Assembly: GCF_013315695.1 (NCBI RefSeq)
Contig: NZ_CP054353.1
Direction: 5' to 3' (one strand)
DNA: 64,000 bases
From: Escherichia coli
GTDB taxonomy: Bacteria; Pseudomonadota; Gammaproteobacteria; Enterobacterales; Enterobacteriaceae
Of the stretch, positions 57,531-59,532 are shown piece by piece. The position numbers and the translations under genes were made by a program. The notes beneath the pieces are model-generated. The model was not told the origin of the DNA. It was given only the letters and a program-made list of their open reading frames with translations, and ran no database searches. The stretch's first letter is position 1. Each line of letters begins with the position of its first letter.

Positions 57531-58889
57531 ATGATGAATATCCGCACGCTTAAGCTCACTAATCTGGGGCGGTTTGAAGAACTTGACGTTCATCTGGCTC
57601 CAGTGGAGGAGTTCAAGAGCAATGTGACCGTTTTTATTGGTAATAATGGTGCAGGTAAAACATCAATATTAAAATCGTTGGCAACCAGCCTGAGTTGGTT
57701 CGTTGCCCGAGTTCGTACTGAAAAGGGTAACGGTAGCCTTATTCCTGAAGACGCTATTCTGAACGGTAGGAGTTCGGCGACAATTGAACTTCAGGTACTG
57801 AATACGCATCCAGCGACGGAGGCCGCTACGCCCTACCGTTGGTTGCTTGCCAGAACGGCCAGTGGGAAAAAATCGACCACCGCCTCCAGCCTGCAAGAGG
57901 CCAGCCAATTGGCTGCGTTTTATCGAGATCAATACACCCAGAATAGCGGGGCATCCTTCCCGCTTATCGCCTTCTATCCCGTAGAACGTGTCGTGCTGGA
58001 CGTGCCGTTGAAAATAAAAGAACGTCATAATTTTTTGCAACTGGATGGCTACGATAACGCCCTGAATCAGGGTATTGATTTCCGCCGTTTCTTTGAATGG
58101 TTTCGCAATCGCGAAGATGCAGAAAATGAATCAGGCTTACCGCAAGACGTTCTGGATAAGCTCAGTACCAGGATAGATCTCGATAACACCGTCTTAAATG
58201 CATTAACGGCAATCATGGCCTCGTCCCGGGATCGCCAGTTGACCGCCGTCAGAACGGCCATTAGTCGCTTTATGCCAGGGTTCAGCAACTTACGCGTCAG
58301 GCGTAAACCTCGCCTGCATATGTCGATTGATAAAAATGGCCAGACACTGAATGTGCTGCAATTATCGCAGGGTGAAAAATCACTGATGGCGTTAGTCGGC
58401 GATATTGCTCGCCGCCTGGCAATGATGAACCCGATGTTAGAAAACCCGCTAAACGGCGAGGGAATTGTATTAATTGATGAAGTGGACATGCACCTGCATC
58501 CAACATGGCAGCGTACAATCATCCAGCGTCTGACGACAACATTCCCACATTGCCAGTTTGTCTTAACAACCCACTCTCCTTTAGTGATCAGTGATTGCAA
58601 AGATGTGCTGGTTTATTCTCTGGATGATGGCGAATTAACGCAGCTCCCGTCTCTGTATGGGCAAGATGCGAATACTGTGCTTTTGAATGTGATGGATACG
58701 GATATTCGCAATGCGACAGTGGCAGAAAAACTTAACGATCTTTTGGATCTGATTCAGAAAAACGACTTTATCAACGCTAACGCTCTTCTGAATACGCTAA
58801 GCCTGGAACTTCCTGAAAACCATCTTGAACTGGTGAAAGCCAGAATGCTTCTGCGCAAACAGGAAATTAAACATGCGCGAAATAACTAA
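57531..58889 (+). CDS. ABC/OLD-type P-loop ATPase (AAA_21/AAA_15-like, no TOPRIM domain); candidate defence-system ATPase, Septu PtuA-like
   Basis: 452-aa ORF; Walker A GNNGAGKT (res 37-44), ABC signature-like LSQGEK (res ~278-283), Walker B IVLIDEVD (res ~312-319), H-loop HLHP, TTHSP motif (res ~346-350); not in the K-12 smrB-yfcO interval as I recall it. Confidence 0.75.
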   Translation: MMNIRTLKLTNLGRFEELDVHLAPVEEFKSNVTVFIGNNGAGKTSILKSLATSLSWFVARVRTEKGNGSLIPEDAILNGRSSATIELQVLNTHPATEAATPYRWLLARTASGKKSTTASSLQEASQLAAFYRDQYTQNSGASFPLIAFYPVERVVLDVPLKIKERHNFLQLDGYDNALNQGIDFRRFFEWFRNREDAENESGLPQDVLDKLSTRIDLDNTVLNALTAIMASSRDRQLTAVRTAISRFMPGFSNLRVRRKPRLHMSIDKNGQTLNVLQLSQGEKSLMALVGDIARRLAMMNPMLENPLNGEGIVLIDEVDMHLHPTWQRTIIQRLTTTFPHCQFVLTTHSPLVISDCKDVLVYSLDDGELTQLPSLYGQDANTVLLNVMDTDIRNATVAEKLNDLLDLIQKNDFINANALLNTLSLELPENHLELVKARMLLRKQEIKHARNN

Positions 58890-59532
58890 AGGGCAACCGC
58901 CGGCTAGTTTGCAACAGTGGGTGAGAGCAAAACCACGGGATAAAAATGCCAATCAGTGGTTTCAGGAACTTTATGCGCAAAAAAAATGGGATATCGTTGG
59001 CGATCTCAGCCAGCAGTGCGCTCAGGAACAATTTTATCTCTGTGCTTATTGCTGCGATCGCGTGACAGGTACAAACCGCGATACCGTTAATGAACATGTC
59101 GAAGCCAGGGATTTAGCTCCTGCTCGCAGTCTGGAATTCACGAATATCGTTGCAAGCTGCAAAACAAAAGGCCAGTGTGACGACTCGCATAAGAACCAGC
59201 CATTGCTGTTAACGCCGCTTATGCCGGAATGTGAAACCGAGTTTATCTTCAAGATCAGTGGTCGAATTGAAGGGACGACGCCGAGAGCTATCGATGCGAT
59301 TAAGGTACTCAACCTTGGCGATAGTGAACGTAATAATCGGGCATTAATTGAAAAACGTAAGCAGCTTTCCGACAACCTTCTGTGGGCTAATGGCATTGAC
59401 CCTTCAGAGGGGCTTGAGGATGACGATCTGCTGCAAGTGGTTATCGACGAATTACTCACCCCCGTCGACGGTTATCTGGCACCTTTCGCTCCCGTGGTGG
59501 CGAATATTCTAAAAAACTGGATGACCGCATGA
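58873..59532 (+). CDS. Cys/His-rich HNH-like putative nuclease, partner of the ATPase (Septu PtuB-like)
   Basis: 219-aa ORF overlapping the ATPase gene by 17 nt; AGGAAA ribosome-binding sequence inside upstream gene; CAYCC...NEH...N...C-x5-C-DDSH pattern compatible with a zinc-bound HNH motif. Confidence 0.65.
   Translation: MREITKGQPPASLQQWVRAKPRDKNANQWFQELYAQKKWDIVGDLSQQCAQEQFYLCAYCCDRVTGTNRDTVNEHVEARDLAPARSLEFTNIVASCKTKGQCDDSHKNQPLLLTPLMPECETEFIFKISGRIEGTTPRAIDAIKVLNLGDSERNNRALIEKRKQLSDNLLWANGIDPSEGLEDDDLLQVVIDELLTPVDGYLAPFAPVVANILKNWMTA

What the first reader, a model, noticed from the sequence alone, without database searches (positions are those of the whole stretch)
58873..59532. Partner protein: Cys/His pattern consistent with a zinc-stabilised HNH nuclease; translationally coupled
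The 219-aa ORF starts 17 nt before the ATPase stop, with AGGAAA as ribosome-binding sequence inside the upstream gene. It contains CAQEQFYLCAYCC, then NEH (a candidate general-base His preceded by an acidic residue), then TNIVASC about 17 residues later, then C-x5-C-DDSH. That spacing fits the beta-beta-alpha-Me HNH fold with two Cys pairs. The N-terminal ~55 residues and C-terminal ~70 residues have no motif I can identify and may mediate binding to the ATPase.
Basis: partly seen in the sequence, partly recalled or inferred. Interest (0 to 1): 0.7.

Follow-up and report, generated by a model that had tools for sequence, protein, structure and literature searches.

The report
Known Septu anti-phage nuclease PtuB

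Summary
The 219-aa ORF at 58873-59532 is real. It is PtuB of a standalone (type I) Septu system, and the ATPase is PtuA (PADLOC E=4e-95 and 4e-168, both full length). The pair is an allele of "Septu Ec^B88" (Nat Commun 2026, PMC13096335). PtuB is 216/219 identical, PtuA is 395/399 identical over the part of its sequence that is held, and the chromosomal site (smrB|yfcO) is the same. In that study PtuA K43A/D316A and PtuB H75A/N91A abolished defence, and infection by phage T6 led to cleavage of the tRNA-Tyr variable loop. C57, C60, C96 and C102 are invariant in 128 homologs and align to the four zinc ligands seen in the retron-Eco7 PtuB structure. An AlphaFold model (pLDDT 97) matches only solved PtuB chains at high confidence. 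Four corrections apply. C49 and H106 are not conserved. The N-terminal helices belong to the nuclease domain, and only the C-terminal three-helix domain is the ATPase-binding module. The likely substrate is tRNA, not DNA. Verdict: already known, low interest. In passing, most E. coli genomes with any trace of this locus carry only deletion remnants.

The parts
57470..57499 (+). Candidate sigma-70-like promoter (CTGACA-18-TAAGAT) in the smrB-ptuA spacer. Weak evidence.
   Evidence: Consensus scan. The number of sites in the region (2) is no higher than in shuffles (2.9), so this is only a candidate. The Ec^B88 clone, with 300 bp of flank, worked from its native promoter (PMC13096335).
57531..58889 (+). 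ptuA: a 452-aa ABC/SMC-type ATPase. Walker A K43 is at 57657-57659 and Walker B D316 at 58476-58478. It lacks the N-terminal domain that binds RT-msDNA in retron-type PtuA, but keeps the C-terminal helical 'claw' region.
   Evidence: PADLOC PtuA PDLC00271 E=4.2e-168. Pfam AAA_21/AAA_23/SMC_N/AAA_15. Aligns to Eco7 PtuA residues 67-540 of 550. 395/399 identical to Ec^B88 PtuA WP_000981116.1 over the part held.
58861..58866 (+). Shine-Dalgarno-like AGGAAA inside the 3' end of ptuA, 6 nt upstream of the ptuB ATG.
   Evidence: Sequence. A similar purine-rich AGGA element sits upstream of ptuB in loci L004, L005 and L007.
58873..58889 (+). 17-nt overlap between the ptuA 3' end (including its TAA stop) and the ptuB 5' end.
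   Evidence: The overlap is 14-17 nt in Klebsiella, Cobetia, Gluconobacter and Nitrosomonas homolog loci.
58873..59532 (+). ptuB: a 219-aa zinc-finger HNH (His-Me finger) nuclease, the effector of the Septu system.
   Evidence: PADLOC PtuB PDLC00344 E=4e-95, full length. 216/219 identical to Ec^B88 PtuB WP_016243072.1. AF2 pLDDT 97. Foldseek top-10 matches are all PtuB chains.
59041..59052 (+). First zinc-ligand pair, C57-A-Y-C60.
   Evidence: Invariant in 128/128 sequences. Aligns to Eco7 PtuB C43/C46.
59092..59097 (+). E74-H75: the catalytic His (general base) preceded by a conserved acidic residue.
   Evidence: H75 is invariant; position 74 is E in 111 and D in 11 of 128. Aligns to Eco7 E56-H57. 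H75A abolishes defence in Ec^B88.
59143..59145 (+). N91, the Asn of the H-N-H motif.
   Evidence: Invariant. N91A abolishes defence in Ec^B88.
59158..59178 (+). Second zinc-ligand pair, C96-x5-C102.
   Evidence: Both invariant. Align to Eco7 PtuB C78/C90.
59329..59529 (+). PtuB C-terminal helical domain (about residues 153-219; model helices 156-172, 184-194 and 206-218). Inferred docking module gripped by the PtuA C-terminal domains.
   Evidence: AF2 secondary structure. Homology to the Eco7 PtuB CTD (153-216) and to the retron I-A 'claw' interface. R162 is invariant and K163 aligns to the Eco7 PtuA-contacting R160.
59544..59563 (+). GC-rich hairpin (8-bp stem, 4-nt loop) 12 nt after the ptuB stop, lying between the convergent ptuB and yfcO genes. 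It has no U-run, so it is not a canonical intrinsic terminator.
   Evidence: RNA fold of 59525-59585: -29.8 kcal/mol, z = -3.66. The terminator scan did not call it. It is retained in the UTI89 remnant locus.

Best explanation
The ORF encodes PtuB, the nuclease effector of a standalone (type I) Septu anti-phage system, and the upstream ATPase is PtuA. PtuB is built from an HNH (His-Me finger) domain, about residues 1-150, followed by a three-helix C-terminal domain. The HNH domain is braced by a Cys4 zinc site (C57, C60, C96, C102), with E74-H75 and N91 at the active site. By homology with solved PtuAB complexes, the C-terminal domain is clamped between the C-terminal helical domains of a PtuA dimer, so the nuclease is held by the ATPase oligomer and kept quiet in uninfected cells. 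On infection by T5-like or T-even phages an unknown signal activates the complex, and this requires PtuA's ATPase motifs. The tRNA-Tyr variable loop is then cut at C48/A49, which stalls translation and aborts phage replication. Shown for the near-identical Ec^B88 allele: defence, dependence on K43, D316, H75 and N91, and infection-dependent tRNA-Tyr cleavage in vivo. Shown here: identity to that allele, conserved residues, fold, and conserved gene pair and overlap. Inferred: zinc binding in this protein, the PtuA-PtuB interface, how it is activated, and that PtuB itself, rather than a downstream factor, cuts the tRNA.
For: PADLOC PtuB E=4e-95 and PtuA E=4.2e-168, both full length. PtuB is 216/219 and PtuA 395/399 identical to Septu Ec^B88, and the clone's 5' flank aligns to window 57236-57633 at 95.7% without gaps, so it is the same site. 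Published tests on Ec^B88 (PMC13096335). C57, C60, H75, N91, C96 and C102 are invariant across 128 homologs. AF2 model pLDDT 97, pTM 0.92. Foldseek top-10 matches are all PtuB chains, probability 1.00, TM 0.53-0.69. The family profile hits PDB PtuBs at E=1.7e-25 to 6e-22. The zinc ligands and catalytic His map one-to-one onto Eco7 PtuB, where zinc is seen and the quadruple Cys-to-Ala mutant loses defence (PMC12673091). The C-terminal 'claw' interface is described. The ATPase-HNH pair with a 14-17 nt overlap is conserved in four genera. No RT or retron RNA is nearby.
Against: No in vitro tRNA cleavage by any PtuAB has been reconstituted (PMC12673091; PMC12640716), so direct cleavage by PtuB is not proven. 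Other PtuABs are reported to nick plasmid DNA (EcSeptu ATCC 25922) or cut ssDNA (retron-Eco4). This allele differs from Ec^B88 at 3 PtuB positions (N168S, V189A, V198I) and at least 4 PtuA positions, and has not itself been tested. Pfam sees no HNH domain, and the NCBIfam PtuB and TIGR02646 scores are below their cut-offs. The third HNH position (H106) is not conserved.
Confidence: 0.84

Rival explanations
1. PtuB is a DNA nuclease. Once released from ATP inhibition, the PtuA-PtuB complex nicks or degrades phage (or host) DNA, as reported for the E. coli ATCC 25922 Septu and for retron-Eco4 PtuAB. On this view tRNA-Tyr loss is secondary.
For: Summaries of Li et al. 2024 and Wang et al. [quoted passage not shown] The model matches EcSeptu PtuB 8eea_G with the best TM-score, 0.69. 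HNH domains are typically DNases (established knowledge). tRNA cleavage has not been reconstituted in vitro.
Against: For the 98.6%-identical Ec^B88 system, tRNA fragment sequencing mapped an infection-dependent cut in the tRNA-Tyr variable loop. Extra phage tRNA-Tyr, whether overexpressed or amplified in escapers, restores infection, which is hard to explain if DNA is the lethal target. This PtuB has the Cys4 zinc finger of the tRNA-targeting retron I-A PtuBs, whereas EcSeptu ATCC 25922 PtuB keeps only one of the four cysteines. PtuA is also closer to retron I-A PtuA (E=3.8e-62 to 5.5e-47) than to ATCC 25922 PtuA (1.2e-32).
Confidence: 0.12
2. The pair is the effector half of a type I-A retron (type II Septu), held in check by an RT-msDNA antitoxin encoded nearby.
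For: Second-tier PADLOC hits to HNH_I-A (2.4e-22) and ATPase_I-A (4.8e-114). The best solved relatives of PtuA are retron Ec83 and Ec78 ATPases. The zinc finger is shared with Eco7 PtuB.
Against: ptuA starts 85 nt after smrB and ptuB ends 46 nt before the convergent yfcO, leaving no room for an RT or ncRNA. Rfam finds no RNA family near the locus. PtuA lacks the roughly 63-residue N-terminal domain that contacts RT-msDNA. The NCBIfam retron-Ec78 equivalog scores are well below cut-off (93.9 vs 150; 350.6 vs 500). Ec^B88 defends as a two-gene clone.
Confidence: 0.02
3. The Cys pattern forms a non-catalytic zinc ribbon, and the protein is only an adaptor or regulator of the ATPase, not a nuclease.
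For: Pfam finds no HNH domain. The third HNH position is variable, with K the most common residue.
Against: H75 and N91 are invariant, and H75A or N91A abolishes defence in Ec^B88. The fold matches HNH nucleases, including Cas9 HNH domains among the lower-ranked hits. The family profile reaches a Cas9-type HNH domain, 4ogc, at E=0.0023, and an HNH nuclease domain protein, 9k32, at E=1.2e-5.
Confidence: 0.02

Closest known systems
Septu Ec^B88 (PtuA WP_000981116.1 / PtuB WP_016243072.1) of E. coli JBBDAGI-19-0041 (Nat Commun 2026;17:3468, PMC13096335)
   Same: Same two genes at the same chromosomal site (smrB | yfcO) with the same lengths (452 and 219 aa). PtuB is 98.6% identical. PtuA is 99.0% identical over the 399 residues held. 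The tested residues K43, D316, H75 and N91 are all present at the same numbers.
   Different: Three PtuB substitutions, all in the C-terminal domain (N168S, V189A, V198I), and at least four in PtuA (D19E, L70P, T220A, I228L). The last 53 residues of Ec^B88 PtuA were cut off in the stored file and could not be compared. This allele has not been tested itself.
Retron-Eco7 (Ec78) PtuA-PtuB, type I-A retron / type II Septu (PDB 9kjx, 9l7p, 9nnb, 9vh1; PMC12673091)
   Same: HNH domain plus three-helix CTD. Cys4 zinc finger: C43/C46/C78/C90 correspond to C57/C60/C96/C102. Catalytic His: H57 corresponds to H75. The PtuA CTD grips the PtuB CTD. The target in vivo is the tRNA-Tyr variable loop.
   Different: Only about 17-20% identity in PtuB. 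There is no RT or msDNA here, and PtuA lacks the RT-msDNA-binding N-terminal domain. The NCBIfam equivalog cut-offs are not reached. Eco7 has K94 where this protein has H106.
E. coli ATCC 25922 Septu PtuAB (PDB 8ee4/8ee7/8eea; Li et al. 2024, known here only through citing papers)
   Same: A standalone two-gene Septu. PtuB has the same overall fold (best TM 0.69) and the same H and N residues. The profile E-value is 1.7e-25.
   Different: That PtuB is 243 aa and keeps only one of the four zinc-ligand cysteines. Its PtuA is more distant (E=1.2e-32). It is reported as a 6:2 complex that nicks DNA and is inhibited by ATP, whereas the Ec^B88 type is linked to tRNA-Tyr cleavage.
Type I-A retron of E. 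coli FORC82 (PDB 9n69/9n6b; PMC12475279) and Retron-Eco4/Ec83 PtuAB (PDB 9e8z)
   Same: Top structural match is 9n69_F, E=4e-8. The ATPase C-terminal triple-helix claw holds the HNH C-terminus, and the HNH is a tRNA-directed toxin in FORC82.
   Different: Different substrates (tRNA-Ser for FORC82, ssDNA for Eco4). Both are controlled by a retron.
PARIS (AriA ATPase + AriB Toprim nuclease)
   Same: An analogous logic: an ABC/SMC-like ATPase sequesters a tRNA-cleaving nuclease until phage infection. AriA is a distant hit of PtuA (E about 1e-6).
   Different: The nuclease has a different fold (Toprim, not HNH). It is not a family member.

Membership tests
Septu (PtuA/PtuB), standalone type I | PtuB matches curated PtuB profile HMMs over its full length | tested here: met
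   PADLOC PDLC00344 E=4e-95, residues 1-218 vs profile positions 1-212 of 213, plus more than 20 further PtuB models.
Septu (PtuA/PtuB), standalone type I | An ABC/SMC-type ATPase (PtuA) is encoded immediately upstream in the same operon | tested here: met
   PDLC00271 E=4.2e-168. Pfam AAA_21/AAA_23/SMC_N/AAA_15. 17-nt overlap. The pairing is conserved in 4 distant loci.
Septu (PtuA/PtuB), standalone type I | HNH catalytic His and Asn present and conserved | tested here: met
   H75 and N91 are invariant in 128 sequences.
Septu (PtuA/PtuB), standalone type I | PtuB fold equals that of solved PtuB (HNH domain plus C-terminal helical domain) | tested here: met
   AF2 pLDDT 97. Foldseek top-10 matches are all PtuB chains, probability 1.00, TM 0.53-0.69.
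Septu (PtuA/PtuB), standalone type I | No reverse transcriptase or msr/msd ncRNA next to the pair (this separates type I from retron-linked type II) | tested here: met
   The flanking genes are smrB and yfcO, with 85-nt and 46-nt spacers. There is no Rfam hit near the locus.
Septu (PtuA/PtuB), standalone type I | Confers phage resistance that depends on the ATPase and HNH motifs | not testable with these tools
   Reported for the 98.6%/99%-identical Ec^B88 allele (PMC13096335). Not tested for this allele.
Retron Ec78/Eco7 effector PtuB (NCBIfam NF041761 equivalog) | Score at or above the curated cut-off (150 bits) | tested here: not met
   93.9 bits. PtuA against NF041760 scores 350.6 vs a cut-off of 500.
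Retron Ec78/Eco7 effector PtuB (NCBIfam NF041761 equivalog) | Encoded with a retron RT and ncRNA, and PtuA has the RT-msDNA-binding N-terminal domain | tested here: not met
   No RT ORF and no retron RNA. PtuA aligns only from Eco7 residue 67 onward.
Retron Ec78/Eco7 effector PtuB (NCBIfam NF041761 equivalog) | Cys4 zinc finger within the HNH domain | tested here: met
   C57/C60/C96/C102 align to Eco7 C43/C46/C78/C90 and are invariant. Actual zinc occupancy cannot be tested here.
TIGR02646 (retron system putative HNH endonuclease subfamily) | Score at or above the curated cut-off (52.15 bits) | tested here: not met
   42.3 bits, E=7.3e-11. Some source databases still label close homologs 'TIGR02646 family'.
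His-Me finger (HNH) nuclease superfamily | Beta-beta-alpha-metal core, with the general-base His at the end of strand 1 and the Asn in strand 2 | tested here: met
   Model strands 71-75 (ending at H75) and 92-96 (starting after N91), then helix 103-106. The profile reaches other HNH domains: 9k32 at 1.2e-5, group II intron maturase 6me0 at 1.9e-4, and the Cas9-type 4ogc at 2.3e-3.
His-Me finger (HNH) nuclease superfamily | Conserved third metal-binding His/Asn on the alpha helix | tested here: inconclusive
   The aligned position (H106) is K in 74, H in 38, R in 10 and Q in 6 of 128 sequences, and K94 in Eco7. The metal ligands other than E74 are not identified.
His-Me finger (HNH) nuclease superfamily | Match to a Pfam HNH family | tested here: not met
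   No Pfam-A hit even at E<=10. The family is too divergent for Pfam's HNH models, so this reflects the library and is not evidence against the fold.

The most novel reading that the evidence does not exclude
The most novel reading the evidence leaves open concerns activation. This standalone, zinc-finger, retron-like PtuAB has no msDNA antitoxin, so it must sense infection through an unidentified direct trigger. The allele-specific substitutions, which in PtuB all lie in the PtuA-docking C-terminal domain (N168S, V189A, V198I), with at least four more in PtuA, might tune activation threshold, toxicity or phage range. The frequent decay of the locus in E. coli (only 136 of 658 genomes with any trace keep an intact gene junction) would then reflect selection against an autoimmunity-prone tRNA nuclease.
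Probability: 0.1. Interest if true: 0.4.

Novelty: already known. Interest (0 to 1): 0.1.

Why it matters
It matters mainly as a correct annotation. RefSeq labels this protein inconsistently, either "hypothetical protein" or "HNH endonuclease family protein", and Pfam does not recognise it. Yet it is the effector of a defence system already shown, in a near-identical allele, to block T5-like and T-even phages by cutting tRNA-Tyr. The biology still open lies outside the finding as stated: the infection trigger, direct proof of tRNA cleavage, and why the locus decays so often.

Tried and rejected
- Pfam scan of PtuB: no hit at all.
- Single-sequence search of PtuB against PDB sequences: only marginal hits (E=0.11-0.21). 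A family profile was needed.
- NCBIfam: the retron-Ec78 PtuB/PtuA and TIGR02646 models all scored below cut-off, so I rejected membership of the retron equivalog families.
- Retron hypothesis: rejected. There is no room for an RT, no Rfam RNA, and PtuA lacks the N-terminal domain.
- Promoter and terminator scan: sites were no more frequent than in shuffled sequence. The downstream hairpin was not called because it lacks a T-run.
- Li et al. 2024 (PMC12318543, the founding Septu structure paper): not held. Its findings are cited only second-hand through PMC12640716, PMC12673091 and PMC13096335.
- A first attempt to place the Ec^B88 clone by exact string match failed because of SNPs. blastn then resolved it.
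- I considered whether the nearly invariant C120, rather than C96 or C102, is a zinc ligand. The profile alignment to Eco7 favours C96/C102, and Eco7 has no Cys at the C120 position.
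Full report
**Observation.** The ORF is real and as described: 58873-59532 on the + strand, ATG start, 219 aa. The upstream 452-aa ORF (57531-58889) ends in TAA at 58887-58889, so the two genes share 17 nt. AGGAAA lies at 58861-58866, 6 nt before the ATG. The quoted motifs are residues 49-61 (CAQEQFYLCAYCC), 73-75 (NEH), 90-96 (TNIVASC) and C96-x5-C102-DDSH106. RefSeq annotates the same coordinates in identical genomes.

**Context.** The window is E. coli chromosome (mnmC ... 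aroC, prmB, smrB, then the yfcO-yfcV fimbrial operon on the other strand). The gene pair fills the gap between smrB (85-nt spacer) and the convergent yfcO (46-nt spacer). Its GC content is 47-48%, against 51.9% for the window.

**What it is.**
- PADLOC profiles identify the 219-aa protein as PtuB (PDLC00344, E=4e-95, full length) and the ATPase as PtuA (PDLC00271, E=4.2e-168). These are the two components of the Septu defence system.
- PtuA has the expected ABC/SMC-type domains (AAA_21, AAA_23, SMC_N, AAA_15).
- Pfam does not recognise PtuB at all.
- The NCBIfam retron-Ec78 PtuB/PtuA equivalogs and TIGR02646 match but score below their cut-offs. The pair therefore belongs to the PtuAB superfamily without being a retron-type equivalog.

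**It is an already characterised system.**
- A literature search led to Nat Commun 2026;17:3468 (PMC13096335), which studies "Septu Ec^B88" from E. coli JBBDAGI-19-0041.
- Its Supplementary Data 8 gives the sequences. PtuB WP_016243072.1 differs from the window protein at 3 of 219 positions (N168S, V189A, V198I). PtuA WP_000981116.1 differs at 4 of the 399 residues held (D19E, L70P, T220A, I228L).
- The 5' end of the cloned fragment aligns to window 57236-57633 at 95.7% without gaps, starting inside smrB, so the chromosomal site is the same.
- The paper reports defence against Demerecviridae (T5-like) phages and against T4 and T6.
- It reports loss of defence with PtuA K43A or D316A and with PtuB H75A or N91A.
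- It reports growth arrest typical of abortive infection.
- It reports infection-dependent cleavage of the tRNA-Tyr variable loop at C48/A49.
- T6 escapes by SegB-driven amplification of its own tRNA-Tyr gene.
- K43, D316, H75 and N91 are the same residues at the same numbers in the window proteins.

**Independent tests of the structural claims.**
- I aligned 128 full-length homologs gathered from two database searches, with identities to the query from 71% down to about 24%.
- Invariant columns are C57, C60, H75, N91, C96, C102, P115, G130 and R162. C120 is Cys in 121/128 and Q53 is conserved in 127/128. Position 74 is E in 111 and D in 11.
- C49 is mostly Leu.
- AlphaFold2 with this alignment gave pLDDT 97 and pTM 0.92. 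The model has three N-terminal helices, strands 71-75 and 92-96, a short helix 103-106, a small beta unit, and C-terminal helices 137-146, 156-172, 184-194 and 206-218.
- Foldseek against the PDB returned only PtuB chains as its ten best matches (probability 1.00, TM 0.53-0.69). These were retron I-A 9n69_F, EcSeptu 8eea_G, retron Ec78/Eco7 9nnb, 9u9y, 9l7p and 9vh1, and Ec83 9e8z. Cas9 HNH domains and a zinc-bound phage HNH followed at weak scores.
- The family profile finds the same PDB proteins by sequence (E=1.7e-25 to 6e-22), and also reaches other HNH domains.

**Zinc site and interface.**
- In retron-Eco7 PtuB the cryo-EM structure shows a zinc ion bound by C43, C46, C78 and C90, and the quadruple Ala mutant loses defence. 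H57 is the catalytic His. The HNH domain is residues 1-152, and a three-helix CTD (153-216) is sandwiched between the CTDs of two PtuA molecules (PMC12673091).
- Profile-guided alignment maps C43/C46/C78/C90 to C57/C60/C96/C102, E56-H57 to E74-H75, N73 to N91, K94 to H106, and the PtuA-contacting R49 and R160 to R63 and K163.
- An independent structure of another type I-A retron describes the ATPase C-terminal triple helices as a claw that grips the HNH C-terminal region (PMC12475279).
- The window PtuA aligns to Eco7 PtuA residues 67-540 of 550. It keeps that C-terminal region but lacks the N-terminal domain that binds RT-msDNA.
The N-terminal ~55 residues are part of the nuclease domain.
- EcSeptu ATCC 25922 PtuB keeps only one of the four cysteines. 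This protein is therefore of the zinc-finger type shared with retron I-A effectors.

**Gene overlap.** In Klebsiella, Cobetia, Gluconobacter and Nitrosomonas loci encoding homologs of 55-69% identity, a 453-461 aa ATPase with the same Pfam domains lies directly upstream and overlaps ptuB by 14-17 nt. A purine-rich AGGA element sits upstream of the start in three of the four. This fits translational coupling but does not prove it, because the same nucleotides also encode conserved PtuA C-terminal residues. Two of the four pairs sit between hsdS and hsdR of type I restriction-modification operons, a typical defence-island context.

**Mechanism and rivals.**
- The best-supported model is that PtuA holds PtuB by its C-terminal domain. 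Infection activates the complex in a way that needs the ATPase motifs. The zinc-braced HNH site (E74, H75, N91) then cuts tRNA-Tyr and halts translation and phage growth.
- The main rival is DNA as the substrate, as reported for EcSeptu ATCC 25922 (plasmid nicking, ATP inhibition) and retron-Eco4 (ssDNA). Against it stand the tRNA fragment mapping and the rescue by extra tRNA-Tyr in the near-identical Ec^B88, and the closer kinship of both proteins to tRNA-targeting retron I-A effectors.
- A caveat is that no group has reconstituted tRNA cleavage by PtuAB in vitro.
- A retron-linked arrangement is excluded by the gene map, by Rfam and by the missing PtuA N-terminal domain.
- A purely structural zinc ribbon is excluded by the invariant, mutation-sensitive H75 and N91.
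- The trigger of Ec^B88 is unknown. A tail sheath candidate was ruled out by the authors.

**Distribution, noticed in passing.** Among 5,426 complete E. coli genomes:
- 183 carry ptuA plus the 5' part of ptuB at 99% identity or more, always at this site.
- Only 136 of these have the ptuA/ptuB junction segment. The others, for example CUVET19-1704, have a deletion of about 187 bp (window ~58723-58909) that removes the PtuA C-terminus and the first 12 codons of ptuB.
- 658 genomes contain the last 225 bp of ptuB. So about 475 genomes, including UTI89 and CFT073, keep only an unannotated 3' remnant. In UTI89, window 57446-59307 is replaced by 48 bp of other sequence.
- K-12 has no trace and carries a divergent yfcO allele.

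**Verdict.** The feature is an already known and already tested defence system, so interest is low.

Noticed in passing
window 59308-59532 (compare L002, UTI89): The last 225 bp of ptuB (74 codons) survive as an unannotated remnant next to yfcO in about 475 complete E. coli genomes that lack the rest of the system, including UTI89 and CFT073. In UTI89, window 57446-59307 is replaced by 48 bp of unrelated sequence. Septu therefore looks ancestral at this site and later deleted, rather than recently inserted.
   Followed up: partly
window ~58723-58909 (compare L008, strain CUVET19-1704): 47 of the 183 genomes that carry the pair lack a segment of about 187 bp spanning the ptuA/ptuB junction. The deletion removes the PtuA C-terminal 'claw' (about 55 residues) and the first 12 codons of ptuB. 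It leaves a 404-aa ATPase and a 207-aa PtuB that are still annotated as genes, and probably inactivates the system.
   Followed up: partly
window 59579-60439 (yfcO) vs L003 (K-12 J53): K-12 has a 70-bp smrB-yfcO spacer with no ptuB trace, and its yfcO allele is only 69.6% identical to the window's. Presence of Septu or its remnant seems tied to one yfcO allele lineage.
   Followed up: no
window 59544-59563: A stable GC-rich hairpin lies between the convergent ptuB and yfcO (-29.8 kcal/mol for 59525-59585, z = -3.66). It has no U-run, so the terminator scan missed it. It is conserved in the UTI89 remnant locus and may act as a bidirectional terminator or RNA-stabilising element.
   Followed up: partly
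PtuB residues C120, P115, G130, R162, Q53 (window 59230-59232, 59215-59217, 59260-59262, 59356-59358, 59029-59031): These residues are invariant or nearly invariant and are not explained by the HNH or zinc motifs. C120 is Cys in 121/128 sequences but absent in Eco7 PtuB. R162 lies in the first helix of the docking domain, next to the residue that aligns with the Eco7 PtuA-contacting R160.
   Followed up: partly
L004 (Klebsiella-like contig) and L007 (Nitrosomonas): Homologous ptuA-ptuB pairs are inserted between hsdS and hsdR of type I restriction-modification operons. In L006 the pair sits near a resolvase and a phage-type integrase, so the cassette moves between defence islands.
   Followed up: no
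RefSeq records under H1-H15 (same locus as window 58873-59532): The same protein is annotated as 'hypothetical protein' in some RefSeq genomes and 'HNH endonuclease family protein' in others, never as PtuB/Septu. Pfam has no model that detects it.
   Followed up: no
window 39265-39336 (-) and 5474-5516 (-): The only Rfam hits in the window are naRNA4/CssrE (65.1 bits) and the nuoG RNA motif (50.3 bits). Both are ordinary E. coli features unrelated to the finding.
   Followed up: no
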